A stretch of 64,000 nt of DNA from a virus (taxonomy: Duplodnaviria; Caudoviricetes), in the IMG/VR virus record IMGVR_UViG_3300042275_000518, positions 125,902 to 189,901 of that record; one strand, 5' to 3'. This document shows, piece after piece, positions 1-52,957 of the stretch (the first letter of the stretch is position 1; every line of letters starts with the position of its first letter). The notes under the pieces were generated by a model that saw nothing but the letters and a program-made list of their open reading frames with translations, made no database searches and was not told the DNA's origin. The translations under genes were made by a program, and so were the position numbers.

Positions 1-2693
1 TATTGGATTGCGTTACCCATATTTTAATTTTGTTCAGTTAAGCTCGCTAAACTTAACTCGCTTTCGCAGCTCATACTTTCATATGAGATCAGACTATATC
101 TTCATCCTATTATTCTAATAGGAGCTTTCCGTTTCCACTCGCTTGAGTGTACTCTACTCCTCCCAATTTTATATCTTTGAGATTTTCGATAGTCGTTGAA
201 CTTTCTAAAATTTTAATTAATTTATCTATCCTCATGGTTGTTAAATTCTTAATTTCTAGAAAATTATAACCTTTAGATAGTGCCTTCTCTTTTTTTGTTT
301 TATCTACAAGTCGTCTGTGTTTTAAATCATCATCTGTCATATTTCATTTCTTTTTATAGTGTTGTTGTCCGTGCAATTCTAATATTAAATTAAATTTAGG
401 TATATAAAAATCAAAAGGTCTTGATTTCAGATATTCATCGGTATCGATCTTGAAATTAAATATACTTTCTATTTTAATATTATTTTGAAAATATTTTTCT
501 GGCCTAGACATATTTTCATATTTAGAACACTCCGGACATCCTTGAAAATTATATTTATGTTTTCCTGGTAATATTTCAAAATCACCATGTATTGGACACG
601 TTACTATAATTTTTTTATTCATATTAATATACTCTGTTTTAGAATAGTCATATTTATTTTCGAATATATTATTACAAATATTAGTGAATTTATTTTTTTC
701 TAACAGATTTCTTTTAATATTATCTTTTTGTGTGTTTTCCATACCACATTTTTCACAACCACCATGTATAGTTGCAAAAAGATGATTGTTTGGTGTTACT
801 AAAAATTCACCATGTTTTATACAATTTATTCTTACTTTTTTCTTATTATGTTCATAAACTGTATTTTCATATGTAAATCTTTTACTAAATTTTTCTTTAG
901 ACTTGTTTATAAAACTTTCAGTTGTAACTTTAATCGGCATAATATGCACCTCCTATAAATTATTGTTTATAGTACTGAGTTGCATTTCTTAAAATTTTAG
1001 CTTAGCTGCTGATTGTCTTCGTCATTACACGGTCAGAGTTTCCAGCAATTAGAAAAGTGATTATTCCCAGGCAGTTACGCAATAGTTTACCAGGGATTGT
1101 TTCCATTTATGTTCAGTTAAGTTCGCTAATCTTAACCCGCTTTCGCAGCTCATATTTTCATATGAGATCAGACTATATCATCATCTTTTTATAAAGATGT
1201 CTTGCGCTTCCACTCGCCTGAGTGTACTTCCTTTCGGAATAGTCGTTGAACGTTCCTCTTAATTGAGGCTTCGCTGCTGATTGTCTTCGTCATTACACGG
1301 TCAGAGTTTCCAGCAATTCACAAGATTTTACAATATATAATTTCTTATATATGGGACAAAATTTATCCTGTTTCAAATAGTTGATATTCGCCTTTGTTGG
1401 GAATATACTTGTTGAAACTTTTTGATTAATGTGGTTGATAAAGATAACAATAATATTTGCTTCTTTACATGGTTGTACTAATCTTTTCATTCATTATGTT
1501 CAATTAAGCTCGCTAGACTCAACCCGCTTTCGCAGCTCATACTTTCATATGAGATCAGACTATATCTTCATCCAATTTATATATTGGAGCTCCTTGTTTC
1601 CACTCGCTTGAGTGTACTCTACTCACTTCCATCTTTCGATGTGTTTTCGATAGTCGTTGAACTTATATTATTTCATAATATAAGCTGCTGATTGTCCTCG
1701 TCTTTACGTTAGGAGTTTCCAGCAATTAAAGAAGTTTCCTATTGTATATTACTATACAATGAGCCAATCACTTAGCTGTGTGTTTGCTTTTGCTGCCGTT
1801 GTCTTTCATGTTACGAATGTTCGTTAAACATTCTCTATATATTTCTATATAGAACAGACTATATCATCATGTTAAAACTATTTAACATGCCTTGCGCTTC
1901 GAACTCACTTGAGTCCTACTCTACTCAGTTATTCATTCAGATTAAGTTCTGAATTATCTTTTCGATAGTCGTTGAACGTTCCTCTTACTTAGTAGAGGCT
2001 TCGCTGCTGATTGTCTTCACCATTATGTGGTCAGAGTTTCCAGCAATTCACAAGGTTTTCTATTTAATAACAATAATAATTTATTATTAAAAAGGGCCTA
2101 CATTTTTAAGCCGACATTTGTCCAGACATTTCATCTGAAAACATATCATCTCTTGGCATCATCATTGCTGCAGAGTCAACTATCATAATAGTTGGCGGTA
2201 GCATTGTTTTTAATTGTCCAGTTTTATGGTCGATAAATCCCTCTTTGTTTTCAATTGTAAGTTCTTTCTTATACTTCAATTTAAGAGTTTTAATTTGCTT
2301 AACCATTTCTAAGACAGTTTCGGTTGCAATACCTGTTTGTTTTACTGTAACCTTTTCATCATACTCTTCATCCGTTAGGCCTGTTACGGCTTTAATACGT
2401 GCTTCACCATGTGATTGCTCAAAGTCTAATATAAACAAAGAACTTTGTTCATATCTCTTTAAGATATTTCCAGCGATTTGAAGAGCCATTGTTGATTTAC
2501 CTGAACCTGGTTTTCCGATAATTGTGACAACTTTTCCAGCGTCAATACCAAGATTAAGATTGTGTCTGCCACGATTACCGTTTAAGTAATCTAAAATTGG
2601 CAAACCAGTTTTAATCATCATTTGGTCATCGGCATAACCGAATTTAGGATCATCAATGATTTCTTTTAATTCTCCTATAAAATTTTTTCCCAC
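1..2693 (-). CDS. recA: RecA/UvsX-like recombinase, spliced. Exons 2109-2693, 1774-1802, 1365-1491, 1089-1103 and <1-17 (continues beyond the window)
   Basis: Walker A GKPGSGKS, LDFEQ, Walker B IMIVDS. GTG start at 2693 after GGAGG. Removing four introns gives a continuous frame ...SGQMSA|TTAAKANTQL|MKRLVQPCKEANIIVIFINHINQK...YLKQD|ETIPG|GNAIQY, with RecA-type INH and PGG motifs. Confidence 0.9.
18..1088 (-). mobile_element. Group I intron 4 of recA (1071 nt) carrying a homing endonuclease
   Basis: Core motifs flank an ORF. Intron 5' segment ATTGCGTAACT can pair (P10) with 3' exon GGTAACGCAAT; terminal G at 18. Confidence 0.9.
110..940 (-). CDS. Intron-encoded homing endonuclease (CxxH/CxxC zinc-ribbon repeats plus C-terminal PD-(D/E)XK/Vsr-like domain), 276 aa with one TGA=Trp at 344-346
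   Basis: ORFs 344..949 and 110..340 are in the same frame, separated only by TGA AAT. FDFYIP..ILELHGQQHYKKK[W]NMTDDDLK..DKTKKEKA..GYNFLEI completes the nuclease domain. SD GGAGG, ATG at 940. Confidence 0.85.
1104..1364 (-). mobile_element. Group I intron 3 of recA (261 nt, no ORF)
   Basis: P1 GGAU/GUCC, conserved core, terminal G at 1104 followed by the 15-nt exon GAA ACA ATC CCT GGT. Confidence 0.9.
1492..1773 (-). mobile_element. Group I intron 2 of recA (282 nt, no ORF)
   Basis: P1 AGCU/GGCU, same P/Q/R/S core, terminal G at 1492; the junction CT|A forms a Leu codon before ATG AAA AGA. Confidence 0.9.
1803..2108 (-). mobile_element. Group I intron 1 of recA (306 nt, no ORF)
   Basis: 5' exon ends in U (GGCU pairs with intron GGCC). 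Core AATTGCTGGAAAC..AATCAGCAG..TTCAACGACTA..GATATAGTCT, terminal G at 1803, frame restored. Confidence 0.9.
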
Positions 2694-2788
2694 TGTGTTT
2701 CCTCCTCTAGTAATAATATTATGTTTCGGGATATTTAAAGCTTTCAATTCTGAGTTATATGCTACAACCATTACATCAACTCAAGGTT

Positions 2789-2796
2789 ATAATATA
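2789..2796 (-). promoter_or_regulatory. Early-type promoter motif TATATTAT (representative). Also at 4285, 9818, 15121, 19072, 28174 and 31148, all - strand
   Basis: Recurs at the heads of minus-strand operons; resembles phiKZ/AR9 early promoter motifs. Confidence 0.7.
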
Positions 2797-2820
2797 TTAT
2801 TATAAAAAAATATGAAAATG

Positions 2821-4384: not shown

Positions 4385-5878
4385 ATGAAAATAGTTACAA
4401 CTGATAGTTTTACAAAGAAAATTAAAGAAAAATTTAATACTACATATTCTGTATTGGGAGAGTACAAAGATCAGTATACACCAATAGAGATTAAATGTAA
4501 TAAATGCAATAATATATTTAGTATCACACCAAAATCCTTACTATCTAAAAATAAAGGAACTTGTAGGTATTGCGCTTCTAGAAAAAATACAGATCAGTTT
4601 AAAAAAGAGGTATATGATTTAGTCGAAAATGAGTACACTGTATTAGGAGAATATGAAACAAATAAAACTCCAATACGTATAAGACATAATAAATGTGGTC
4701 ATGAATATATGACTACTCCTATAAATTTCTTAGGTCTAAGCAATAGAAAAGGTCGTAGGTGTCCCAAATGTGCAAATAAAAATCAAACAACAGATGATTT
4801 TAAGAAGCGTGTATATAAAATGGTTGAAAATGAGTACACTGTATTAGGAGAATATGAAAACTCAGATACAAAAATTTTAATGAAACATAACACTTGTGGT
4901 CATGAATATAATGTTAGAGCTGGATTATTTTTATATAATAATCGCAGATGTCCTAAATGTTGTCCAGTTCAATATGGTTCTTCATATAAAGAAAAAAATC
5001 TTCAAAATTTTATTGAAAGCATATATGATGGAGAAATAAAAATGAATGAAAGATTTTACTATGATAGTGAAAACCCAAAAAAATATTATGAATTAGATAT
5101 TTATATTCCTGATATAAAAATAGGAATTGAATTTAATGGTCTAGTATGGCATAGTGATTCTAAAAAAGATAAATATAATATTTTAAATAAGATGAACCAT
5201 TTTAACAATGAGGGTATTAGAGTGATAAATATATTCGAAGATGAATGGGATCAAAAACAGAATATTGTAAAAAATAAAATTCAAAATATTCTAAATGTTT
5301 CTAATCTTGATAGAATATATGCTAGAAATACAGTTATACTAAAAATAAATAACGAACAGAAAAAAGAATTTCTAAATAATTTTCATATTCAAGGTTCTGA
5401 TAATTCAAGTATTAAATATGGGTTATTTTATAAAAATGAGCTAGTCGCTGTGATGACTTTTTCTAGACTGAGGAAAGTGCTAGGAAGTAAACCACAAGAT
5501 AACTATTTTGAATTATCTAGATTTGCAACTTCAAAAAAAGTCGTTGGAGGGTTCAGTAAATTATTAAAAAATATTATAAAAATGCATCCAGAAATTCATA
5601 ATATACGAACATACGCAGATCTTAGATGGAGTTCAAAAGATGTTAATATGTATCAATCTAATGGTTTTGTATTAGATCATATCTCAAAGCCAGGCTATTT
5701 TTATTGCGATAATTTAAACCGATATCACCGTTTTAACTTTAGAAAGAATATATTAGAAGAAAAATTTCCAGAATATTATGATAAAAACCTAACTGAGTTC
5801 CAAATTATGGATAAGACAAATTATTATAGAATTTGGGATTGTGGAAATTTAGTTTACGAAATGAAAATAAAAAGATAA
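4385..5878 (+). CDS. Free-standing homing endonuclease (zinc-ribbon repeats, PD-(D/E)XK domain, Hef-like C-terminal domain)
   Basis: Repeated YTVLGEY..HNKCGHEY..RCPKC units; ELDIYIP..IGIEFNGLVWHS; C-terminal ELSRFAT..YADLRWS..RIWDCGN. Confidence 0.8.
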   Translation: MKIVTTDSFTKKIKEKFNTTYSVLGEYKDQYTPIEIKCNKCNNIFSITPKSLLSKNKGTCRYCASRKNTDQFKKEVYDLVENEYTVLGEYETNKTPIRIRHNKCGHEYMTTPINFLGLSNRKGRRCPKCANKNQTTDDFKKRVYKMVENEYTVLGEYENSDTKILMKHNTCGHEYNVRAGLFLYNNRRCPKCCPVQYGSSYKEKNLQNFIESIYDGEIKMNERFYYDSENPKKYYELDIYIPDIKIGIEFNGLVWHSDSKKDKYNILNKMNHFNNEGIRVINIFEDEWDQKQNIVKNKIQNILNVSNLDRIYARNTVILKINNEQKKEFLNNFHIQGSDNSSIKYGLFYKNELVAVMTFSRLRKVLGSKPQDNYFELSRFATSKKVVGGFSKLLKNIIKMHPEIHNIRTYADLRWSSKDVNMYQSNGFVLDHISKPGYFYCDNLNRYHRFNFRKNILEEKFPEYYDKNLTEFQIMDKTNYYRIWDCGNLVYEMKIKR

Positions 5879-5888
5879 ACCTTTTGGT

Positions 5889-6927
5889 TTATCTTTCTTT
5901 TGTATCTTGTTCCTGCGTATATGCAGTTTTTAAACTACGTGTTATCAGATCTGATTTAATTCCAGAACCTAATAAATATACATTCATCGTGTTAATTGTA
6001 GTTGATCTTGTTAAATCATTTTCTAAACTGTCAAGACTTACATAACCATCTTTTGCAATACTTCTATACATATCCTGCTTAGCAACTTGATTGTCTGCAC
6101 GAGGTCCTAAGAACTCTTTCAAAACAGCATCTGCATTTAATGCGGTCAACATAAAAGTTTCTGGGTCTGATAAAGATGCAACTTTTGATTCACCTTTAAC
6201 AGTACCAGTTTTTAATGTTATATCTTCTGTATCAAACGCATAACGATTTTTCTTAGCCAAGAGTTGCTGTACGCGCTTAATGTGAACATCGTTTTATGTT
6301 TAATCGAATTCGTTATTTCCGATTTGCTTTCGCACTCATATTTTCATATGAGACCAGACTATATCTTCACCCTTTCGGGGTTCCCAGTTTCCATCCACTT
6401 GGATGTACTCTACTTTACTATATTTCAAGCGTTTCGATAGTCGTTGAACGTTCCTCTTAATTGAGGCTTCGCTGCTGATCGCCCAATCTTTCAGATTTTC
6501 AAACCTTCACGATTACCTTTGCAGGTTGCGTTGTGGTTCTGAAAGCTCTAAGGGGTTTCCAGCAATTAAGGGAATTTTAGTTGAGCTAGTATTTCAACCC
6601 AACAGGTACTCTCATTTTAGTCCTTATTCCATCTGGGTCATTATGACGGTACCAAACATATTCTTCTAATGGTATTTTTAGATATTCAGCCGCGCTTTTA
6701 ATCTGAGTCATCTTCATTTCTTCAAATGGTAGTTGGAACATTTGAATTGTATCGTCTAATTCATGACCCATACTATTTGCCCATTTTTCAAATTCATCAT
6801 TTGACATTGTTTTAAACATACCTTGATATCTTTTATAGTTTGCCATTTTATCATTATCCATAAGTTTAACAACTTCAAGAACCATGGTTTCTATTTTTTG
6901 TCTCTTCTGAGGTGTAAGTTTTCCCAT
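5889..6927 (-). CDS. Multisubunit RNA polymerase beta-like C-terminal subunit (probably virion RNAP), spliced: exons 6597-6927 and 5889-6289, 243 aa
   Basis: Splicing gives KMRVPVG-Y-VHIKRVQQLLAKK, resembling the beta C-terminal VG..Y..KL region. The small split-subunit size fits phiKZ/AR9-type RNAPs. Exons sum to 732 nt in frame. Confidence 0.75.
6290..6596 (-). mobile_element. Group I intron in the RNAP subunit gene (307 nt, no ORF)
   Basis: P1 GUUGGGU/GCUCAAC, conserved core, terminal G at 6290; T|AT forms Tyr. Confidence 0.9.
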
Positions 6928-8249
6928 TAGCTAACACTCCTTGCAAATTTTTTTGCATCTTCTTTAGATTTAAATCGATGAAAAGCTCTGTGAGACCATC
7001 CATACCAAAGTTGCTCATCTTCACTGAACCCAACCGATACTACATCTGAATCTGGACTACTCGGTTGTAGCTGGGTTAAGTTTCAAACTTTTGTATATTG
7101 TTTTAAGTCTTTATCTAAGCCAATATAATAATTTTCTTTCGTATATCAGCTATAAAAACCTTCTAAACCTTTTTTCTCTGAAGGTTTATAATAATATATT
7201 TCACCGTTTATGTCAATAGTCTTATTATTTTCTTGAAGCATTTCAGTAGCTAAATAATCTTCAATAGACTTAATCATAGCACCAGCTTTATTTATAGCTT
7301 CTTTAATCTTTTCATTATATTCAAGTCTTTCAATTGCTTTATAAACCATACTATTCATACTATATCTTGGATCTTCATGTTCATACTGTATTGACACTTT
7401 AAAAGGCATTTCTTCATATCCTTCTACCATAAAAGATCTTAAAATATGTTTTCCAATTTTTAAGCGATCAACATCCGCACGAATTTCATTAAGTTTCCCT
7501 GATAAATAATCGCGTTTTTCCTTTTCTGAAAGATCCTGTTTTTTGCTGTCATAGCTCATATAAACTTCAGCTTCCATTATGTCTCTTTCATTTTCAGATA
7601 AAGCAAGATCAAAACCATCCATGAAAAATTTAGCAAGTTCCATAACATATGAGTATGGTACTTTTGTAGTATTTTTTCCAGCTTTCTTTTCCCAGGTATC
7701 AGTTAACAAATTGTATATATTTTCAAATCTTTTAGTTTCTGTTGCTTGAGGATCATCTGGAGTACCAACCCAAAAATTGATTGGATGGCTTGTTCCTTCA
7801 AGCATATTTCCATTTGGAAGAGTTTTTCTTAAAGTCCAAATTTCTTTATCTGGATCTTTTAGTTTAACAACTAGATTTATGTCTATATCCGCAGTATTGT
7901 TGAACTGGAAACCTGACATTGAACCAATTAATCTCATATGAACTATTTCAAATTTAAAGTTCAATTGTTTACGCCATTCATCTAATATATTCATAATTTG
8001 TTTTTTAGCTTCAGGTCTCATTTTTTCATTTTTATCGAATAAGTCTTCTGACCGTGTATTTTGTATAGGATCAAATACTGATTCTTTAATTATATCATTC
8101 CTGATTTCTTCAAATAAATTTAGCGACATCCCAGGATAAATTATATTTTTTTCAATTTTTCTTTTAAGGGATTCACTTATAGAAACAAATGAAGCTAAAT
8201 CTTTTGAATCATCATACATCTTTTGTAAAGTTTCTTTTAATGTTTTCAT
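6927..8249 (-). CDS. Pol-beta-superfamily nucleotidyltransferase-like protein, 440 aa with TGA=Trp at 7146-7148 and 7083-7085
   Basis: LIGSMSGFQFNNTADIDINL (GS..DxD). Reading both TGA as sense extends the ORF 73 codons (..VGFSEDEQLWYGWSHRAF..FARSVS) to a TAA overlapping the next ATG (TAATG). Confidence 0.75.
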
Positions 8250-8256
8250 AGTTTCA

Positions 8257-9543
8257 CTATCCCTTCTGTATAACAAGAACAAAATAAAAAAATACTGCAT
8301 TTTTTAGTTTTGCCTGTTGTGTCTTTCCAAAATTTAAATATTCTACACTGTAAGCTTTTAAAAATTCTTCTAGCATCTTTTTAACATTTAGCATATTTCT
8401 ATCTTTTGTATTAGGACTCTTAAATATTTTTAGTGATGCTGTTAAGAATGTTGGAGTTCTTAAGTCTTTTGCTGAATACTTGGTTCCTGTATGTGAATCT
8501 ATATTGAATAAAAAAGATCCAATAATACTCTCGATAAAATCTGGTAGTTGTCTGTATTTGTTATCAACTATTTCAGATACAGTGTTTTTAAGTATATCTG
8601 TATATAGACCTGAATATTTATAACTTCCATATGATTTTGTTTTATCAACGAATCCATATTTAGCAGCAATTTCAATTAATTCTTCATCGATTGGAGATTT
8701 AAGCAATCCACTAACAGCTTTCTTAACCATTTGGTCTTTAACTGCTGCGTCACTTTTAATATCACGAGCAAAATCTTGCCCTTCACTATCATCTGTACCT
8801 TCAAAAGTACTGTCTTCAAATGGAAGATACTTTCCCTTGTTCTTTTGATACTCATTGTATATAGATTTCATGAAACTTGAAATTCTACTTTGAATACCAG
8901 CGGTATAGATAACGTGAATATCTTTATCGCTAATCATATCAGATGTTAAAGTTGGTAAATAGTTTTTAAATGAACTATCAGCCATCTTTTCTAACACACC
9001 AATAACACTGCCTTGTTTTTTAATATCAAAGCGTTCGGTTAAGTTTTCAATAGTATACATCATTTGATCTTCATTCACACCATATTTAAAATGTCTAAAA
9101 ACTACACTTGCATATGGTTTATAAAATGCTGATAAATAAAGCATCTCAGCTTCTTTTTTCTTATTTTGACTATACAACTCGCCACTTGCTAATATTAATG
9201 GAATAGAAAATATCATCTGATCCATTAATTGAAAGTTTCCAAATTTAGAAAAATATGGAGATTCTTTAATAGCAGCAGTAATTTCTTTTTTATCAATTCC
9301 GAATATTTTAAGTATATTGTCTTGCATATCATCATTAATTAAAAGCTGACGACCAACAATATTTGTTTGTAGAATATTTGAGTTCTTATCTGCAAATTTA
9401 GAAAGTTCTCTCATAAGTGGATTTAAAAAGATGCTTTTCTTAGCAACTGCCTCTTTAACTAATGGCCTAATTTGGTCATTAATCATTGTTGCAGCTTCTA
9501 ATTCTTTTTTAGTAAAAGTAGCTTCTTGTAGTATTTCTGCCAT
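8257..9543 (-). CDS. Hypothetical 428-aa protein, first gene of a late operon (possible virion protein)
   Basis: Long ORF, SD AAGGAG, AACA-N6-TA at 9566-9577. Confidence 0.8.
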   Translation of the reverse strand: MAEILQEATFTKKELEAATMINDQIRPLVKEAVAKKSIFLNPLMRELSKFADKNSNILQTNIVGRQLLINDDMQDNILKIFGIDKKEITAAIKESPYFSKFGNFQLMDQMIFSIPLILASGELYSQNKKKEAEMLYLSAFYKPYASVVFRHFKYGVNEDQMMYTIENLTERFDIKKQGSVIGVLEKMADSSFKNYLPTLTSDMISDKDIHVIYTAGIQSRISSFMKSIYNEYQKNKGKYLPFEDSTFEGTDDSEGQDFARDIKSDAAVKDQMVKKAVSGLLKSPIDEELIEIAAKYGFVDKTKSYGSYKYSGLYTDILKNTVSEIVDNKYRQLPDFIESIIGSFLFNIDSHTGTKYSAKDLRTPTFLTASLKIFKSPNTKDRNMLNVKKMLEEFLKAYSVEYLNFGKTQQAKLKNAVFFYFVLVIQKG

Positions 9544-28214: not shown

Positions 28215-30790
28215 TTAACGGATTATTACTAATTTTTTCTTCGCACGAGTTATTGAGGTGTATAAATGTTTATTTGCATCCTTGCCAAAAACATGACTTT
28301 CATCTATAATGACTACTTTGTCCCACTCACTACCTTGTGCTTTATGGGTAGAAATTACATAGCCATATTCTAATCTATTTATTTGCCTATCTTCTAAAGC
28401 ATCTCTTTCATTGAGTATATATTCCATAACCCTCTTACGGAAGTCTTCAATATCTTCATTATACCCTTTTTTGGTAAGCCATTTTTTAAGTTTGTATTCT
28501 CCATTTGCCATAAAATAAGCTTTTTGGTGCATATCATATGACCATTTATCATTTAGAAATATTCCTGTATCATATATAATATCTTCTGTAATCTCCTCAA
28601 GGAAATCAGCTTTGAAAGATACAACGCCGAGATTAATTTTTTCTTCAAGAACTTTATTAGTTTCTATGCTCCCGATTGTACCGTTAACAAGATTATACTT
28701 TTCCTCTTCATCTAGAAACAACTGCCAGTTATTGACTGTAAATATAACTTTATCACCTTGTATAGGAAGCTTATTTGCAATAGTATCAATACCTTTGTAT
28801 TTTCTAATCTCATTATTCCAATACTTACGAGTTGAGTTAGTCCCACATATAACTTGATCTGCTTTTAGTAGAAGATTCTTCATCTGTACTGGTGTTATCA
28901 TATTCCGATTTAATACTAGAACATCACCATAATCACCATAAGGAATATCCCGACCAGTTCTTGCAAGTGTTGCAAGTTTAATAATTGGGTTATCTTCAGC
29001 CTGACGAACTATTTCTTCAAGGATGTAATTTGGTTTTTCTAAATAATCATTAGACCCCTCTATTGGGGGTAATTGCTTGTCATTCAATTAAAGTCGTTAA
29101 TTTTAATTCGTTCTCTTATGAACTGCTGCATATTTCTATACAGATTGGACTATATCTTCTCCTATAGGAGTTTCCCGCTTCCACCCACTTGGGTGTACTC
29201 TACTAAATTACTATTATATTCTTCATAATAATTATTGAGATTGATTTCGTTATCTTTATTTATAGAATATAAATTGTATTTTTCGATAGTCTCTGAACTT
29301 TTTCCAGATATAATATTATTAATTATTTTCTTAACTCTTGTATTATGTTTATATGGTATTCTAATGAGAGTATATTGTGTATTTTTTACATAATTATTCT
29401 TTATATTATCATTTGTATGTGAGTTTATAAATTTTTCCAAATCTGTATGAAATGCAAATTCAAAATGTTGTCGTCCATCGTATTCTATTATTATATTAAG
29501 TTCTGGTATAAAAATATCATATCTAAGCGGCCCACCACCAACCCCGTTTATTCCCGGAGACCATTCTTGATAAAATTCTATATTATTTTCATTTAATATA
29601 TTTCTAATAGTTCTTATGGCATATGAATTTCTTTTTTCACAGTAGGGACATCTTCTTCCACGTAAAAAATGTGTTGGTGCCACTTTATAATGATGACCAC
29701 AAGAATGTCTAACTTCAATTTTCGTTTTATCATTCTTATATTTTTCTAAAAATGTATAGTCATTTGCATTTTCTAGTTTAGACACTTCTTTTAAGAATTC
29801 CTCATTAGTTTTCTTTTTCGTTCCACCACATACTGGACAACCTCTGCCATTTACTAAATAGGAAGGTTCCATTTCAAATTCAAAGCCACAACTATGTTTA
29901 AATCAACATTTATCTTTATAAGATTTAAATCCGGACAAATAAGTATAACCTTCTGGAATTTCATCTAAAAGGTTTTCTTTTGTTAAATTTTTTCTTTTGC
30001 ATTTTGGACATCCACCCTTTTTTCTCAATAAATCTTTTGGTATTGAGAGAAATTCATGCCCACAATTATGTTTTATAAGAATTTTTGTTTTATTATTCTT
30101 ATACTCATCTAAAACTTCGTATTCTTTACCATATATATCATATACTTCTTTTTTAAAACATTCGAGAGTTTTTTGTTTTCCCATAATATCGCCTCCATAA
30201 TAAAATATTGTTAGCGACTGAGTACAGCTTTTTTCTTAATTAATAAACTGGAACTTAGCTGCTGATTGTCTTCGCCATTACGCGGTCAGAGTTTCCAGCA
30301 ATTCAAGAAATTTATTTTATAGACCCAAGCCAATTTCTAAACCAGGGTCACCTACACCTAAAACTGGTATTCCAAAACTTAATAAATCTTTCATTATCTT
30401 TTTATTTACCATTGAGATCTCATCGACTATAATCAGTTTATAACTTGGTATTGAATCATTCTTAACAAATTCAATTTTCTTTTCTACTATAGTCTCACCA
30501 TTTAATTTTGATTTAAATTCTTTTTCGACAGGAGTATAAACTAGTCTATGAATAGTTGTTGCAGGTAGACCTTTTACAAGTAATACACTTGCAGCTTTCC
30601 CTGTATATGCAACAAACGATATTTGATGTTTCTTCAATCCCAGGTGCTTAGGCAACTTAGATATTAGATAACTTTTACCAGTTCCAGCGTAGCCTGACAA
30701 ATAGAAGAAATTTGACTTTCTTTCTTTATTATTATACCATTCTTCTATAAGATTCATGGCATTCTCTTGGTCTTTTGTAAATTGCTCCAT
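28215..30790 (-). CDS. SF1B Dda/RecD-like DNA helicase, spliced: exons 30341-30790 and 28215-29075, 436 aa
   Basis: GYAGTGKS, AYTGKAA, TIHR, VDEISM; splicing gives motif III GDPG|QLPPI; VRQA, THKAQGSEW, YTSITRA. Confidence 0.9.
29076..30340 (-). mobile_element. Group I intron in the helicase gene (1265 nt) carrying a homing endonuclease
   Basis: P1 GACCCUGGU/GCUUGGGUC, P10 AAUUG/CAAUU, conserved core, terminal G at 29076. Confidence 0.9.
29162..30184 (-). CDS. Intron-encoded homing endonuclease (zinc ribbons plus PD-(D/E)XK/Vsr-like domain), 340 aa with TGA=Trp at 29903-29905
   Basis: ORFs 29903..30184 and 29162..29872 are in frame via KDKC[W]FKHSCGFEFEM, matching sister repeats TKILIKHNCGHEF and TKIEVRHSCGHHY; LRYDIFIP..IEYDGRQHF. 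Confidence 0.85.
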
Positions 30791-31111: not shown

Positions 31112-31187
31112 ATATTTTCCTCCTATTTTCTATATATTGCTATAATTATAATATATATTTAAAAAATAAGAATACCATAAGGTATCC

Positions 31188-31797: not shown

Positions 31798-32253
31798 ATG
31801 AATTTTTGGGATTGGATTGCACAGAACCCAGCAATATTAGTTACTAGTTTAGTCTTAATGGCAACAACAATGTTTACAATATTCGCCAAAGTTATTATTG
31901 GTATTTTCCAACTTGGTGTTAAGTTCCGCCAGGACTATGCGACAAAAAGAGACCAATTAAGATTTGAGTCTGAGATGAGAGATATGTTTAAGGACTACAA
32001 AGAAGAATTGCTTAAAACTGTTATGAGTGCTGCAATGGAAATGATTCGTGAAAAATTAAAAGAAATCAAAGATATTAAAGATGTAGCTCAAACTGTTAAG
32101 ATTATAGAAAAAGAGCTTCAAATCAAAATGCAAAATATGATGGACCGTATCGATGAAACAAAAGCATTGGGTGATAACATCAGAGCACTTAATGCAAAAG
32201 TTGACCGCTTGCAATATGGCCAAAGTGCCGCTCCTACAAGAAGAAAAGAATAG
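31798..32253 (+). CDS. Membrane-anchored coiled-coil protein (possible lysis accessory)
   Basis: N-terminal TM followed by heptad-rich helix; late motif at 31752. Confidence 0.7.
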   Translation: MNFWDWIAQNPAILVTSLVLMATTMFTIFAKVIIGIFQLGVKFRQDYATKRDQLRFESEMRDMFKDYKEELLKTVMSAAMEMIREKLKEIKDIKDVAQTVKIIEKELQIKMQNMMDRIDETKALGDNIRALNAKVDRLQYGQSAAPTRRKE

Positions 32254-45182: not shown

Positions 45183-45202
45183 TTATGAAAGAGGTGAGAG
45201 AT

Positions 45203-45733
45203 ATGATTGAGTGGAGAGATATAGATGGTTTTCCTAGATATGAAATTTCAAATACTGGTTTAGTTAGAAATAAAAGAACCAAACAAGTAAGAAAGACTAA
45301 GATTAGTCATAAGGGTTATGAGATTTTAACTTTATTTAAAGGCGACTCAGGCAAAATATATGGAACAAAGGCTATTCATAGATTAATGGCGGAGTCATTT
45401 ATCTCTAATCCAGAGGAGAAACCACAAGTTAATCATATTAACGGAATTAAAACTGATAATAGACTTGAAAATTTAGAATGGTGCACTAATCAAGAGAATA
45501 CTAAACATGCATATGATAATAATTTAATAAATAAAGATATATTAAATAAATCTCGCAAGAAAGCTTTAAAAGCCAGAAGGAAAAAAGTAGAATGTATAGA
45601 GACTGGTGAGGTTTATGAAGGTGCTAGATATGCTGCAAGATCACTGAATCTGTCAGAAACCAGTGTAAAGAATGCGGCTAATCCTAATAATAGCACTAAA
45701 CATGCTGGCGGATTTACATGGAGATATTTATAA
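45203..45733 (+). CDS. HNH homing endonuclease (NUMOD4-HNH-NUMOD1)
   Basis: [57 protein letters not shown]. Confidence 0.9.
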
Positions 45734-45745
45734 GGTGGTGATTTT

Positions 45746-47590
45746 ATGAGTTTAATAGCGTGATATCCTCTTGACGGAAACGCTGAGGATTATACTGTTA
45801 ATAAGAATGACGGAATTCCTACAAATATAACATATACAAATGGTAAGATTGGCCAAGCTGCTGAATTTAATGGAAGTTCTAGCTATATTGAGATTGAGGC
45901 TAATCACGGTACTTCGTTAACAATATCTGCATGGTTTAAGTCATCTAACATATCACGAGTGCAGGGATTACTTGGAACGTTAGACGAAGGTGTAGGCTCA
46001 AATATTCATATTTACCAAGACGCAACTGGTAAACCATATTTATATTCTAGTGGTAGTATCGCTAGGGATGCCTTATTTAGTAGCGTTTCATTAGTTCAAG
46101 ACGAATGGACACATTTAACATTTATATTCTCACCTAATGGAAGAAGAATCTATACAAATGGTGTCTTAACTGGTTCCGATTCTCAGGATACAATATCGGG
46201 AACTATCGGATTTATTGGTAGAAGAAGTTCTTATTATTGAACTGGGCAAATCAATGACGTCCGTATATATGACCATGCACTCTCACAAAAAGAAATCAAT
46301 GACTTGGCAAAGGCAAAAGTATTACATTATACATTTAATAAAGATGAAGATATAGTTTATGATACTAGTGGATATAAAAGAAATGGAACTAAGATAAATA
46401 GTCCAGCATGGACATCAGATAGTAAAATAGGTAGTGGTGGATATTTATTCGATTATACTAATCCTGATTATATTTCTGTAAATAATAGTGAAGTACTAGA
46501 TTTGGAAGAATTTACTATTTCATTATGGTTGAAGTTTAATTCATTCCAACAATATTCTTCTATAATAGGAAAGGGTACTGGTGGAAATGCTGTAAATTGG
46601 AATTTCACTATATGAAGTTATGCTAATGGAAATATACACTTATTTATAGGAAATGGAATAGATGCATCTGCGAGTGTGTCTACAAATATCACTGATAGAG
46701 TTGGAGAATGGGTACATATTACAGGCAAATTGAATAGTGCTTTAATGTCAATATTTGTTGATGGTGTTAAAAAACAAGAAATACCAACACCATATACTCC
46801 TAATCTAAATGATATTAAGATTTCAATAGGGACTCAATTTAGCTCATATCCTTTTGACGGTTATATCGACGATATTCAAATCTATGCAACAGCACTCTCA
46901 GACTCAGATATACTAGACCTCTATCAAACCCGAGCTAAAATCGATAATCAGGGTAATTTATATGCAAATGAGATTGTTGAGGATTATGAGATACAACCTG
47001 GGTTGACATTAAATGGTTTATATAACAACAATCAACATGTTTATCAGGAAAGAGATATTATTGAAACAACTAGTGATAGTTCTGGGACACAATTTCTTTA
47101 TGATATAACAACTGGTAATTTAAGATTGGATTGGACTTATCGAGATTACTATTACAAACATCAAAACGGTGATATTTATTATAAATATATAGAATTATAT
47201 CCAGATTCTCAACCAATATCTTTAGGATTTGTAGTACTACCTGATAGTAGTAGACCTGAGAGAGAAAATGGTAATATAGGGCCGGGTGAATCATATTCTG
47301 ATACATACTCATACAATTATGATAATTATGAGATATCTTTAGTTGAAGGTGCTAGTGGACAAATAAAAATGAAATATTGGATTGTCCTTAATCTTACACA
47401 AATATTCGGTTCCGGAAATGAACCAATATCTAGTGAAATAGATGTGTATATTAGAGATTACATAACATCTCGCCCTAAATCATCAGGTATAATAAAAACG
47501 AGAGAATTCTCAGAAATAGATACACCAAATGAACCAATGAAAATCTTCAAAGATAAAATACAAATACAAGGATCAATCAAGGAGGGATAA
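45746..47590 (+). CDS. LamG/ConA-like lectin tail protein A, 614 aa with 3 TGA=Trp (45761, 46238, 46613)
   Basis: SD AAGGTGGTG; MSLIA[W]YPLDGN; fuses ORFs 45959, 46304 and 46676 in one frame; GKIGQA..F, NDVRIYDHALS. Confidence 0.85.
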
Positions 47591-49867: not shown

Positions 49868-49891
49868 TTTTAGAGAGAAGAGGTGAGAACT

Positions 49892-52800
49892 ATGGCATTA
49901 ATAGCACATTGGCCATTGAATGGTAATACAAATGATATAAGTGGGAATGGATATAATCCAACAACAGTTGGTTCGGTTACATATGTGCCAGGAAAAATAG
50001 GCTCTGCCGGATTATTTGATGGTACTTCAGATGTATGTTATATAAATTCTACCATACAACAATTTGAAAATGTTTTTAATAATAACTCATCTATATCATT
50101 TTGGTACAAACTTAAATCAGCATCAACTGCCGCAGGAGTTTTGGCAATGGGACCTTCAGGAACAAATACCAGATTACATTTAGTAATTAGAGCAGAAGGT
50201 AACTTTGCAATTGGTTTTTATGCTAATGATTTTAATACAACATTCTTTCCAGTTATAGACCAGTGGTATCATTATACAATTATATTAGATAAAAAAAATA
50301 TGAAACAAAGATTATTTATAGATGGTGTGTTTCATAGTGAACGAAATGTATCATCATTTCTAGAAATACCTTCTGGTAGTTCATTTGAACTAGGTGGATA
50401 TTCTGGCAGTGCTGCTTTTGGAGAGTTAAATGACGTTCGAGTTTATGACCATGCACTAACAGATATGGAAATTCAAGAAATAGCTCGTGCTAAGATTCTT
50501 CATTATACATTTGATGATTTCCAAGAACCTACTACTAATCTGATAGGTACAGTAATTGATACTACATTTGAAACTACAACGGGATTATCACTTAGTTCTA
50601 CAGTAACTGTAAGTGACGAAATAAAATTTAATAATCATAAAGTATATAAAATAGAACCAGACTCAGACTCATCTGGATTTAGTATAACATCTAATATTTG
50701 GATAAATCAGGACGATATAGTTAATCTAAGCTTTTGAGTCTATATACCTTCAGATCAAATAATGACAAGAACTTGAGAGATACATAGACATATGCTTCCA
50801 GACGGAAGCTGTATTGGTGGAAATTGTCATCATTATAACAGTATAGATTACACAAATAAAGACTGGGATAGCAATAGTCCAAAGAATCAATGGTTTAGAC
50901 GCGATATTACAATACAAGCGGATCTAAAGGATGGAACTTATACAATTATAAATGGTTTTTGGGCAAGAATATTTGCATATAGTGGACAATCTATAGCAGG
51001 TGATGGTTATTTTTATGTAACGGAACCTCAAATTGAGAAGAAAAATTATCCAACTGAGTTTACTACTCTTTCAAGAATTGGAAACGTAAATGATTATAGC
51101 GGTTTTTTCAATATTTCTAATTTATCGGAAGAATATAGTCCTAGATGAATAACAGATTCTAAAATAGGTGCAGGTGCTTATTATTTTAATGATAGTAATA
51201 ATATTATAAAAAAAATTTCTAATACTATCTACTCCCCAGAAAATATTACTGTAAATTTATGGTTTAAATCATCTGATACAGGTTTTACATCATACCATAT
51301 ACCGTTTAGTTGAGGAAGTCTTCATATAGAAATATCTATAAATACATCTGGTAATATCAGAACTGGCTTTTACATAGACGGAGTGAGACGGGTATATAAC
51401 TCTGGATCGGGTCTATTAGATGGAAATTGGCATATGCTAACATCTGTATTTGATGGAACTCTAATGAAGGCATATATAGATGGAGTCAAAACCGGTGAAT
51501 GATCTCATACTGGTTCTTTAACTAGAATGAATTCTACTTTAAGCATAGGTGAATACTCTGGATATGGTAATAAAAACGCGTATGAAGATGACGTGAGAAT
51601 ATATGCAACAGCTCTGTCAGATGCAGATATATTAGATCTTTATCAAACTCGTGCTGAAATAGAAGAAAGTGGAGTTTTATATGCAAGAAATTTATTATCA
51701 AATGCTAGACCAGTTGCAAATTTACTAGGTACAACAGGGGCAGATGCCTCAGGAAGTGGGACATGGTCTATGAATGCTCATGCTGGATGGACTTGGGAAG
51801 TATCTAACCTATCTCCAGATAGGGAGCATATTTGGCATGTACAGCATACTACAACAGACAATGAAGTATTCTATCCGACAAATTATAATTTTGTACCAAA
51901 AACATATTTAGGAGAAAGGTTTGTATTTATATTTGAATATAAATTTAATTCTACATCAACTACTGGATTTAGCGGAAGTTTTTATCAAGATGGCTGGAAA
52001 CTTCCTGCTGAAAATCAGACAGCTGAACTTGTTTATTCAGAATCTATACCTTTATTAGATGGATGGACGCGAGTTGTATGAATGTATCAAGTAGATTATG
52101 CTGGTACGCCTGTTTTTAGGTTTAATACTGGATATACAACAAATATAGTAGATTTATATATAGATAATATGATGCTTTATAGAGGAACAGAAATTGTACC
52201 ATTTATTAATAGTTATCGCCCAGCAATCCAGCTTCCATCTACATTAGATTTCGCAGGTAATGAAGTTCATGAAACTGGAACTGCTAATTTTGAAGATTTC
52301 TCAACAGTGGGAATTACTGATGGTTTAGTTGGTTATTGGCAATTGAATAATGATGTGAAAGATTACTCAGGAAATAATTATAACGGAACTAATAATGGAG
52401 CGGTATCAAAAGGTGATTATTATTATTTTAATGATGCCGCAAAAATATCTCTCCCAGAGCTCCCATCATTCTCTGAAATTTCTATAATAGCAAAAATAAG
52501 AAGAATTGGCTCCACTAACTGAGAAGGAATTTTTGGTACTGAAGCAAGTATCTTACACTTTCAATTAGAAGCTAGCGGTAAGCTAAATGCATATTTATAT
52601 GGTACTGTTGGGCTAGGCCTAAATTCAGGAACTCATTTTATAACAGCTGACGATAATTGGCATATGGTAGTATTAACTTTTGATAATACAAACTTAAGAT
52701 TTTATGTTGATAACGAATTTGATGCTGAAGCTATAGATGCATCTCCAGGTGGATCTATACCAGCTTCTAGTTTATATCGAATAGGATTATCTCATGATAC

Positions 52801-52957
52801 AACAAGATATTTTAATGGAGATATTGCATACGTAAAACTCTTCAACCGTGCTCTAACCCCAGAAGAAATAGCAATCGAATACAACACAATGTTTAACAAT
52901 GAAGTACAAATACACGAATCAGGCGTTCTATACGCTAAAGATATCAAACAATATTAA
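49892..52957 (+). CDS. Multi-LamG lectin tail protein B, 1021 aa with 7 TGA=Trp (50735, 50774, 51146, 51311, 51500, 52079, 52520)
   Basis: Five ORF-track fragments lie in one frame with only TGA between them; SPR[W]ITDSKIG aligns with SPAWTSDSKIG of protein A. Confidence 0.85.

What the first reader, a model, noticed from the sequence alone, without database searches (positions are those of the whole stretch)
110..967. Intron homing endonucleases are double-locked: own late promoter plus one in-frame TGA
Both intron-encoded nucleases (110-940 in recA, 29162-30184 in the helicase) lie inside genes headed by the early motif. Each has its own AACA-N6-TA motif just upstream (956-967; 30201-30212) and exactly one TGA that would cut the protein inside (344) or before (29903) the nuclease domain. 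The two free-standing late nucleases (4385, 45203) have no TGA. T4 intron endonucleases are known to be silenced on early transcripts by RBS-occluding hairpins. Inference: here a recoded stop could serve the same purpose. Only two cases are available, so chance is possible.
Basis: inference. Interest (0 to 1): 0.75.

Follow-up and report, generated by a model that had tools for sequence, protein, structure and literature searches.

The report
Opal-coded intron homing endonucleases, late-expressed
Two selfish DNA-cutting enzyme genes sit inside self-splicing introns of early phage genes; each has its own late promoter and spells one tryptophan with the stop codon TGA, a real pattern here (all four intact intron nucleases of the genome), but the idea is already published and TGA looks like a secondary, lineage-specific layer.

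Summary
The window is the last 64 kb of a 190 kb AR9-like phage record, estimated 74% complete.

- **Location.** ORF 110-940(-) lies in a group I intron (18-1088) in the L2-loop codons of a UvsX/RecA-like gene. ORF 29162-30184(-) lies in a sibling intron (29076-30340) of a Dda-like helicase.
- **Identity.** Both ORFs are Vsr-like nucleases with zinc-ribbon repeats.
- **Promoter.** Each has an AR9-type late promoter word (AACA-N6-TA) 15-16 nt before its start codon. The word is kept in the orthologous introns of relatives.
- **TGA.** TGA at 344-346 sits on a tryptophan conserved in orthologues. TGA at 29903-29905 sits at a variable site.
- **Genome-wide.** All four intact intron nuclease genes carry TGA (1, 1, 1, 4). 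So do 2 of 8 free-standing ones, and 12 of 190 other ORFs.

The "lock" reading is only partly supported:
- Orthologues in relatives have TGG.
- 0 of 79 homologues elsewhere have an internal TGA.
- One intron nuclease has its TGA five codons before the stop.
- A free-standing GIY-YIG gene has three TGAs.
- T4-like hairpins that hide the ribosome-binding site are also predicted.
- No TGA-reading tRNA was found.

Borges et al. already proposed the same logic for Agate phages. This scan has also met the pattern in several other genomes. I class it as a new member of a known kind.

The parts
18..1088 (-). Group I intron 4 of the UvsX/RecA-like gene. The 5' exon ends ...CCCTGGT at 1089. The last intron base, G, is at 18. 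Exon 5 starts at 17.
   Evidence: Rfam partial hits at 945-1047 and 72-123. BLAST to sibling introns at 1000-1050 and 31-159. The exon join gives ETIPG|GNAIQY, as in the relative L008.
110..940 (-). Homing endonuclease ORF of 276 codons from the ATG. It has two zinc-ribbon repeats and a C-terminal Vsr-like nuclease domain. Its last ~30 codons overlap the ribozyme core.
   Evidence: phrog_559 E=8e-34. Orthologues at 64-65% identity sit in the same recA intron. The model's residues 148-269 match Vsr (Z 7.2) and I-Bth0305I (Z 6.8). The C-terminal VEYTQASGNG is shared with the helicase-intron ORF because both read the same core sequence.
344..346 (-). The in-frame TGA, and the only Trp codon of this ORF.
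   Evidence: It aligns with W in HYKKKWNM of orthologues P0123, P0124 and P0141, where the codon is TGG.
956..967 (-). AR9-type late promoter word AACAATAATTTA, with the predicted start site at 956.
   Evidence: Consensus from PMC5312081. The orthologous introns keep AACAAAATATTA.
944..985 (-). Predicted hairpin. The 5' arm (985-977) plus inner stem pairs with the SD region (954-944). The late start site lies inside it, so late transcripts lack the 5' arm.
   Evidence: -13 kcal/mol, z=-1.06, not significant alone. The same architecture with different sequence in L008 has z=-2.56. Occlusion score ranks 6th of 33 late promoters.
1089..2771 (-). Upstream part of the UvsX/RecA-like gene: exon 1 2771-2109, intron 1 2108-1803, exon 2 1802-1774, intron 2 1773-1492, exon 3 1491-1365, intron 3 1364-1104, exon 4 1103-1089.
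   Evidence: Rfam RF00028 hits of 81-111 bits. tblastn with L008 RecA. Frames read. phrog_97 UvsX-like E=2e-22.
2782..2800 (-). Early-type promoter word (AATATATTATAACCTTG) 11 nt before the recA ATG.
   Evidence: AR9 early consensus AAATATATATTAT-N6-G.
29076..30340 (-). Group I intron in the Dda-like helicase gene. The 5' exon ends ...GACCCTGGT at 30341. Exon 2 starts CAATTACCC at 29075.
   Evidence: Rfam partial hits at 30163-30371 and 29126-29246. BLAST pieces. The join gives GDPG|QLPPI.
29162..30184 (-). Homing endonuclease ORF of 340 codons, with three zinc-ribbon repeats and a Vsr-like domain.
   Evidence: phrog_559 E=2e-73, PF14311. Orthologues at 62-67% identity sit in the same helicase intron.
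29903..29905 (-). In-frame TGA at codon 94, in the second zinc-ribbon repeat and at a variable position.
   Evidence: Homologues have Y, N, R, K or T at this position. The code-11 fragment of this ORF is on record from 10 contigs, so the TGA is not an assembly slip.
30201..30212 (-). Late promoter word AACAATATTTTA. The identical 12-mer stands before structural-module genes at 31798 and 32308.
   Evidence: L010 and L012 keep AACAATAAATTA.
30188..30218 (-). Predicted hairpin: GTCGCT (30218-30213) pairs with GGCGAT (30193-30188), which overlaps the SD. An outer extension reaches the AUG.
   Evidence: z=-0.95. The L010 orthologue has 9 bp and z=-2.82.
31141..31160 (-). Early-type promoter word heading the operon that contains the helicase.
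4385..5878 (+). Free-standing long-form paralogue with a late promoter word 37 nt upstream, 4 TGG and no TGA. It serves as the comparison gene.
45185..45733 (+). Free-standing HNH/NUMOD4 nuclease in the late structural block, with 3 TGG and no TGA.

Best explanation
**Shown**
- Each ORF is a mobile Vsr-like homing endonuclease gene in a group I intron of an early replication/recombination gene of an AR9-like phage.
- TGA in these ORFs is a sense Trp codon of this phage's sparse opal recoding, not decay.

**Inferred**
- The conserved control is T4-like. The gene has its own late promoter, read by the phage's non-virion RNA polymerase.
- That promoter sits inside a hairpin that hides the SD or AUG on long early pre-mRNAs. 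The hairpin cannot form on late transcripts, which start at the last A of the motif.
- Because of the TGA, the full-length nuclease is made only when opal decoding works.
- Until then, ribosomes that do start would stop before the catalytic Asp, or before the nuclease domain. They would also stop before they run into the ribozyme core that overlaps the end of the ORF.

**My reading**
I take this TGA dependence to be a secondary, lineage-specific layer. It most likely arose because TGG->TGA is tolerated, or mildly favoured, in selfish, late, low-demand genes once opal decoding exists. I do not take it to be a purpose-built second lock.
For: **Introns and exon joins:**

**Nuclease family and fold:**

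**AR9-like phage:** split multisubunit RNAP genes and both promoter consensus words.

**Late word kept in the orthologous introns:** L008, L013, L010 and L012.

**Hairpins:**. The four intron nucleases rank 6, 8, 9 and 10 of 33 late promoters for SD/AUG occlusion.

**TGA=Trp**
- KYGW, LIAHWPLNGN and SPAW paralogue columns.
- Conserved W of the recA-intron nuclease.
- Open frames continue 77-246 codons after the TGA with no TAA or TAG. Decayed copies in the relative G001 carry TAA.

**TGA share of Trp codons**
- Intron nucleases: 7 TGA / 5 TGG.
- Free-standing nucleases: 4 / 23.
- Other ORFs: 16 / 348.

**Secondary and lineage-specific**
- Orthologues use TGG.
- 0 of 79 homologues elsewhere have an internal TGA, against 157 TGG.
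- The complete relative G001 shows no recoding.
- The GIY-YIG intron nuclease has its TGA at the fifth-last codon, shared with its free-standing paralogue.
Against: - Within the phrog_559 family, the intron-borne members have 6 TGA / 3 TGG and the free-standing members 0 / 15 (my Fisher test on the counts, p about 6e-4). A pure by-product model does not predict that split; a lock does.
- The hairpins in this genome are no better than shuffles (z about -1). Several ordinary late genes score as high.
- No promoter, start site or timing has been measured.
- No opal decoder was identified in the 190 kb, and the record is only 74% complete.
Confidence: 0.5

Rival explanations
1. One reading: TGA is a selected second lock. 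On early pre-mRNAs the host terminates at TGA, so no active nuclease is made and ribosomes never reach the ribozyme core. Late in infection, opal decoding opens the gate.
For: - 4 of 4 intact intron nucleases carry TGA, against 2 of 8 free-standing ones (gene level p=0.06, codon level p=0.017).
- Within one family the split is 6/3 against 0/15.
- All internal TGAs of the three Vsr-like intron nucleases lie upstream of the overlap with the ribozyme core.
- ATGA stop/start overlaps suggest that TGA still terminates in some genes.
- The same logic is published for Agate phages.
- T4 shows that early translation of an intron nuclease harms splicing (Gibb & Edgell 2010, cited in PMC2988022).
Against: - The TGA is not conserved in orthologues.
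- The GIY-YIG intron nuclease has its TGA five codons from the end.
- The free-standing GIY-YIG gene has three TGAs.
- Tail-fibre-like genes hold 20 or more TGAs without needing such a lock.
- A hairpin-plus-promoter control already exists.
- The timing of opal decoding is unknown.
Confidence: 0.35
2. The TGAs are nonsense mutations, and the nuclease genes are decaying pseudogenes.
For: Homing endonuclease genes often decay. This genome has a zinc-ribbon-only remnant (genome 31530-32027). The relative G001 has copies broken by stops.
Against: - The only interruptions are TGA. There is no TAA, TAG or frameshift in ORFs of 24-27% GC.
- The catalytic residues and the C-terminal domains downstream of the TGA are conserved.
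- One TGA sits on a conserved Trp.
- Two 1000-codon late genes carry 7 and 12 TGAs, so TGA is plainly read in this phage.
Confidence: 0.04
3. The host itself reads TGA as Trp (code 4) at all times, so TGA gates nothing.
For: No phage tRNA(UCA) was found. Every TGA-terminated ORF is followed within a few codons by TAA or TAG.
Against: - TGG outnumbers TGA 348 to 16 outside nucleases and fibre genes, in a 30% GC genome.
- There are several ATGA stop/start overlaps, some with an SD in place.
- The relatives end genes in TGA and have no in-frame TGA.
Confidence: 0.08

Closest known systems
TGA-preferring group I intron endonuclease in an early gene of TGA-recoded Agate phages (Borges et al., bioRxiv 10.1101/2021.08.26.457843)
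   Same: An intron-borne homing endonuclease inside an early gene of a phage that reads TGA as Trp in part of its genes. The nuclease prefers TGA over TGG. The authors draw the same inference, that the stops delay nuclease production until late.
   Different: - This is a different phage lineage: AR9-like, with its own multisubunit RNA polymerases and their promoter words.
- Recoding here is much sparser.
- No suppressor tRNA is seen in the 74%-complete record.
- A late promoter and an SD-hiding hairpin can be pointed to as well.
- There are four introns in one genome.
T4 I-TevI / I-TevII / I-TevIII control (late or middle promoter inside the intron plus an RBS-sequestering hairpin; PMC2988022)
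   Same: The nuclease gene lies inside an early transcription unit. Its own late promoter sits just upstream. The predicted hairpin hides the SD only on long transcripts. The end of the ORF overlaps intron structure.
   Different: - The promoter is read by a phage RNA polymerase, not a sigma-redirected host enzyme.
- The hairpins here are weak and untested.
- T4 has no recoded stop.
- Autorepression at an operator was not found here.
I-Bth0305I, the 'EDxHD' Vsr-like homing endonuclease in the recA intron of Bacillus phage 0305phi8-36 (PMC3239194)
   Same: A Vsr-like catalytic domain (Z 6.8 over 92 of 98 residues). A group I intron in the L2-loop region of a phage recA. The spacing from the conserved D to the conserved H is 17 residues in both.
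   Different: - No sequence-level match to 3R3P.
- The N-terminal DNA-binding part is zinc-ribbon repeats (DUF723/DUF4379), not NUMOD/HTH.
- There is a longer insert before the last Asp.
AR9 late promoters and AR9 g190, a gene with its own promoter inside an intron (PMC5312081)
   Same: The same late word AACA-N6-TA and the same early AT-rich word. An intron ORF has its own promoter, of the temporal class opposite to that of its host gene.
   Different: In AR9 the described case is an early gene in an intron of a late gene. Here four late-promoter nucleases sit in early genes, and one remnant carries an early word. AR9 is not known to recode TGA.

Membership tests
Group I intron (Rfam RF00028) | Conserved catalytic core | tested here: met
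   Both halves give partial hits: E=1e-6 and 0.045, and 2e-5 and 4e-4. They are 89-98% identical to three sibling introns that score 81-111 bits. The full model fails only because the ORF splits it.
Group I intron (Rfam RF00028) | Removal restores a conserved host reading frame; the 5' exon ends in U and the intron ends in G | tested here: met
   ETIPG|GNAIQY in recA and GDPG|QLPPI in the helicase. Both 5' exons end ...CCCTGGT and both introns end in G.
Group I intron (Rfam RF00028) | Self-splicing | not testable with these tools
   This needs RT-PCR or in vitro splicing.
Vsr-like 'EDxHD' homing endonucleases (I-Bth0305I type) | Vsr-like nuclease fold | tested here: inconclusive
   AF2 model, mean pLDDT 76. 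Matches: Vsr Z 7.2 (110 aligned, rmsd 3.6) and 3R3P Z 6.8 (92 aligned). These are the top three rows, but Z is below 8. Foldseek E=0.7. Pfam DUF559 scores below its cut-off.
Vsr-like 'EDxHD' homing endonucleases (I-Bth0305I type) | Conserved catalytic Asp / His / Asp | tested here: met
   D180, E191, H197 and D216 are invariant in alignment A1. The D-to-H spacing of 17 equals D196-H213 of I-Bth0305I. The mapping rests on spacing, not on a superposed active site.
Vsr-like 'EDxHD' homing endonucleases (I-Bth0305I type) | N-terminal NUMOD/HTH DNA-binding region | tested here: not met
   The N-terminal region is treble-clef zinc-ribbon repeats instead (PF05265, PF14311).
AR9-type late promoter | AACA-N6-TA/G just upstream of the gene, with the start site at the last base | tested here: met
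   The word lies at 967-956 and 30212-30201. 23.5% of all such words are followed by an RBS plus start codon, against 5.5-10% for control words. Start sites were not mapped.
AR9-type late promoter | The phage encodes the matching multisubunit non-virion RNA polymerase | tested here: inconclusive
   Several split RNAP beta/beta'-like genes are present. Which set is the non-virion enzyme was not worked out.
T4-type translational control of intron endonucleases | A hairpin sequesters the SD on long transcripts, and the late start site lies inside the hairpin | tested here: inconclusive
   Hairpins are predicted in all four introns, with z of -1.06, -0.95, -0.90 and +0.10 in this genome. Orthologues give z=-2.56 and -2.82. 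A rank test against 29 other late promoters gives about p=0.03 one-sided (my rank-sum on the ranks).
Stop-codon-recoded intron endonuclease (Borges et al.) | The phage reads the stop as an amino acid in part of its genes | tested here: met
   7 and 12 in-frame TGAs in 1000-codon ORFs. TGA aligns with W in paralogues and orthologues.
Stop-codon-recoded intron endonuclease (Borges et al.) | The nuclease prefers the recoded codon relative to the rest of the genome | tested here: met
   7 TGA / 5 TGG in intron nucleases against 16 / 348 in other ORFs (p=8e-7).
Stop-codon-recoded intron endonuclease (Borges et al.) | Decoding is supplied by the phage and comes late (suppressor tRNA) | tested here: inconclusive
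   ARAGORN and Rfam find 24 tRNAs but none with UCA. Low-threshold candidates are noise. The record is 74% complete.

The most novel reading that the evidence does not exclude
An AR9-like jumbo phage with no tRNA(UCA) switches on opal decoding late by an unconventional route. One candidate is its own tRNA-Trp(CCA), which carries the U11-A24 state of the Hirsh UGA suppressor. Selection has then placed TGA in every intron nuclease, so that ribosomes on early pre-mRNAs stop before they unfold the ribozyme cores of recA, helicase, DNA polymerase and RNA polymerase introns. This would be a translational timer layered on a T4-like promoter and hairpin.
Probability: 0.2. Interest if true: 0.7.

Novelty: new member of a known kind. 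Interest (0 to 1): 0.38.

Why it matters
The locus gives an independent, well-resolved case of the published idea that recoded stops keep intron homing endonucleases silent until late. It comes from a different phage lineage. There, the early and late promoter words are known from experiments on AR9, so timing can be read from sequence.

Three candidate control layers can be separated in one locus: the late promoter, the SD-hiding hairpin and the opal codon. This makes the locus a good place to test whether the stop codon does anything beyond what the T4-type control already does.

It also sharpens an open question: how TGA is decoded in a phage that shows no suppressor tRNA.

Tried and rejected
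- **Close relatives by the recA exon:** none in IMG/VR.
- **The 'phages' collection:** no close relative of the phage.
- **JGI metagenome relatives:** The genome search could not reach them, so I could not ask whether L008 and L010 recode TGA in their late genes.
- **Suppressor tRNA:**
  - ARAGORN at default and low thresholds, with introns and in mitochondrial mode, gave only noise. The best candidate, at genome 71000-71072, has a mismatched anticodon stem.
  - The weak Rfam tRNA at genome 100025-100087 is a truncated GAA tRNA-like piece.
- **Other decoding factors:** no RF-1 domain or TrpRS.
- **Solved structures:** PDB sequence search with the nuclease profiles found only a zinc-ribbon protein.
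- **DNA-polymerase intron:** Rfam E-value search found nothing. That intron rests on BLAST pieces and on the GGGCAATCCGCAGC core word.
- **TGA=Gly (code 25):** considered and rejected, because the well-aligned columns are W.
- **Four TGAs of the polymerase-intron nuclease:** checked against 183 homologues. All four sit at variable sites, so they say nothing either way.
- **I-TevI-like operator:** I looked for similarity between the promoter and the homing site. By my reading there are 11 of 21 matches in recA and none obvious in the helicase, so I dropped it.
Full report
**What the record is.** The window is the last 64 kb of a single 189,901-bp IMG/VR virus contig with about 30% GC. CheckV rates it 74% complete. 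It carries 24 tRNAs and a tmRNA, and several split RNA-polymerase beta/beta'-like genes. Both promoter words mapped experimentally in Bacillus phage AR9 are present: early AAATATATATTAT-N6-G, and late AACA-N6-TA/G with the last base as the start site (PMC5312081). I therefore treat it as an AR9-like phage.

**The observation at 110-967.** On the minus strand the ORF starts at ATG 940, with SD AGGAGGTG at 954-947, and ends at 110. It has one in-frame TGA at 346-344 and no other interruption. AACAATAATTTA lies at 967-956.

The ORF lies in a group I intron spanning 1088-18:
- Rfam gives partial hits to both halves.
- The flanks are 89-98% identical to three complete sibling introns just upstream, which score 81-111 bits.
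- Removing the intron joins ETIPG to GNAIQY, the RecA L2-loop segment, exactly as in a relative's gene.

The whole gene is cut by four introns, leaving exons of 29, 127 and 15 nt between them. An early-type word ends 11 nt before the recA start codon.

**The second locus.** ORF 30184-29162 has one TGA, at 29905-29903. AACAATATTTTA lies at 30212-30201. The ORF sits in an intron (30340-29076) that splits a Dda-like helicase at GDPG|QLPPI. The helicase is the second gene of an operon headed by an early-type word at 31141. Both nuclease ORFs end in the same peptide (VEYTQ.SG.GKLL), because their last codons read the shared ribozyme core.

**What the proteins are.** Both match phrog_559 (E=8e-34 and 2e-73). 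Each has treble-clef zinc-ribbon repeats followed by a nuclease domain. A model of the recA-intron protein aligns over residues 148-269 with Vsr (Z 7.2) and with the I-Bth0305I catalytic domain (Z 6.8, 92 of 98 residues). These are the top rows but the Z values are middling.

D180, H197 and D216 are invariant. The D-to-H spacing equals that of I-Bth0305I, which itself lives in a recA L2-loop intron (PMC3239194). The TGA falls between the conserved His and the last Asp, so a product ended there should be inactive. In the helicase-intron protein the TGA precedes the nuclease domain.

**Is the promoter word real?**
- AACA-N6-TA is followed within 25 nt by an RBS plus start codon in 23.5% of its 204 occurrences. 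Six permuted or respaced control words give 5.5-10%.
- The instances share an extended consensus, AACAATWWTTTA.
- The 12-mer before the helicase-intron nuclease is identical to those before two structural-module genes.
- The orthologous introns in metagenomic relatives keep the word at the same place: AACAAAATATTA in L008 and L013, AACAATAAATTA in L010 and L012.

So "own late promoter" is the conserved feature, although no start site has been measured.

**What TGA means.** Most genes have none. Two 1000-codon late ORFs have 7 and 12, and a paralogue has 3. Well-aligned paralogue columns place TGA opposite W (KYGW, LIAHWPLNGN, SPAW). In the recA-intron nuclease, TGA is the only Trp codon. It aligns with the W of HYKKKWNM in orthologues of 44-65% identity, where it is TGG. 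In the helicase-intron nuclease TGA sits at a variable position.

The frames stay free of TAA and TAG for 77-246 codons after the TGA, in ORFs of 24-27% GC. Decayed copies of this family in a relative carry TAA. So these are sense codons, not decay.

Several ATGA stop/start overlaps suggest that TGA also still ends some genes.

**Survey of all nuclease genes**.

| Class | Gene | TGA |
|---|---|---|
| Intron-borne, late word | recA intron | 1 |
| Intron-borne, late word | helicase intron | 1 |
| Intron-borne, late word | DNA-polymerase intron (genome 72846-73862) | 4 |
| Intron-borne, late word | GIY-YIG in an RNA-polymerase-subunit intron (genome 120639-121427) | 1 |
| Intron-borne remnant, early-type word | zinc-ribbon-only ORF in another RNAP intron | 1, probably its stop |
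| Free-standing | GIY-YIG | 3 |
| Free-standing | HNH in the tRNA cluster | 1 |
| Free-standing | six others, including 4385-5878 and 45185-45733 | 0 |

Counts and tests:
- At gene level, 4 of 4 intron nucleases have TGA, against 12 of 190 other ORFs (p=3e-5) and 2 of 8 free-standing nucleases (p=0.06).
- Among Trp codons the TGA/TGG counts are 7/5, 4/23 and 16/348 respectively.
- Within phrog_559 alone, intron-borne members have 6/3 and free-standing members 0/15.

The association with homing endonucleases, and above all with intron-borne ones, is therefore real in this genome.

**Why I do not accept the "lock" as shown.**
1. Orthologues of both nucleases, in the same introns of the same genes in relatives, have no TGA.
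2. None of 79 homologues in IMG/VR has an internal TGA, against 157 TGG. The two apparent cases are ordinary stop codons.
3. A complete 265-kb relative with more than 20 copies shows no recoding at all. The TGA layer is therefore young and tied to this lineage's recoding.
4. The GIY-YIG intron nuclease has its TGA five codons before the stop, in the conserved GHIWKY word. It shares that TGA with its free-standing paralogue, which has two more in the catalytic domain. That looks like inheritance or drift, not gating.
5. The fibre-like genes show that TGA gathers in other fast-evolving, exchange-prone late genes.
   - In all four introns the SD or AUG is predicted to pair with sequence just upstream of the late start site.
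   - In this genome these folds are not better than shuffles (z about -1). The four rank 6-10 of 33 late promoters for occlusion.
   - In the relatives the equivalent hairpins are stronger and use different sequences (z=-2.56 and -2.82).
7. Nothing shows that opal decoding is late. I found no tRNA(UCA), RF-1 domain or TrpRS, though a quarter of the genome is missing.

**What speaks for the lock.**
- The split within one family (6/3 against 0/15) is not expected from drift alone.
- Every internal TGA of the three Vsr-like intron nucleases lies upstream of the stretch where the ORF overlaps the ribozyme core. Termination there would keep ribosomes off the core in early pre-mRNAs.
- T4 work shows that early translation of I-TevI harms splicing (Gibb & Edgell 2010, cited in PMC2988022).

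**Odds.** I put about 0.35 on a selected lock. I put about 0.5 on TGA being a tolerated or mildly favoured by-product in selfish late genes that still makes full-length synthesis depend on opal decoding. The rest goes to a constitutively decoding host or to decay.

**Comparison with what is known.** Borges et al. report that in TGA-recoded Agate phages a group I intron endonuclease inserted in an early gene prefers TGA. They infer that the stops prevent its production until late. T4 supplies the model of a promoter plus hairpin. AR9 supplies the promoter words and a precedent for an intron ORF with its own promoter. I-Bth0305I is the nearest characterised nuclease and shares the insertion site.

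This scan has already followed up the same pattern in several other genomes, with the same verdict. The case here is a new member of a known kind. Its particular value is the combination of a readable promoter code, four introns in one genome, and no visible suppressor tRNA.

Noticed in passing
window 1-2771 (-): The UvsX/RecA-like gene is cut by four closely related group I introns within about 170 coding bases. The exons between them are 29, 127 and only 15 nt (1103-1089, ETIPG). Both nuclease-bearing introns, in recA and in the helicase, follow the same exon word CCCTGGT.
   Followed up: partly
genome 99247-99320 (-), outside the window: The phage tRNA-Trp(CCA) has a U11-A24 pair. This is the state created by the E. 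coli Hirsh G24A mutation, which lets tRNA-Trp read UGA (PMC11805395). With no tRNA(UCA) in the record, it is a candidate opal decoder. Whether A24 is simply normal for the host's clade was not checked.
   Followed up: partly
genome 31530-32027 (-), outside the window: A zinc-ribbon-only remnant of the nuclease family sits in an RNA-polymerase beta intron. It carries an early-type promoter word 38 nt upstream and ends at a TGA. This is the mirror image of the late-promoter nucleases and recalls AR9 g190.
   Followed up: partly
window 45746-47590, 49883-52957, 55692-58757 (+): Three paralogous fibre-like late genes hold 3, 7 and 12 in-frame TGAs. The other large structural genes beside them hold none or at most one near the start, so recoding is very uneven among late genes.
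   Followed up: partly
window 6326-6569 (-); genome 32240-32540, ~71787-71838, 123489-123515: Further ORF-less introns or intron pieces of the same family lie in RNA-polymerase-subunit and DNA-polymerase genes. Rfam misses several of them at its gathering score.
   Followed up: partly
genome ~87276-87350 and 96376-96715 (L005:11276-11350; L006:1376-1715): A c-di-GMP-I riboswitch hit (55.8 bits) and a tmRNA gene lie in the phage's tRNA region.
   Followed up: no
G001 = IMGVR_UViG_3300043093_000048 (loci L096-L109): A complete 265-kb relative of 25% GC carries more than 20 copies or fragments of this zinc-ribbon/Vsr-like nuclease family. Some copies are broken by TAA. It has only 5 tRNAs and no TGA recoding.
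   Followed up: partly
window 6927-8300 (-): A 457-codon ORF has two in-frame TGAs (codons 385 and 406) inside a C-terminal match to the Thoeris inhibitor Tad6 family (PF25188, E=5e-13).
   Followed up: no
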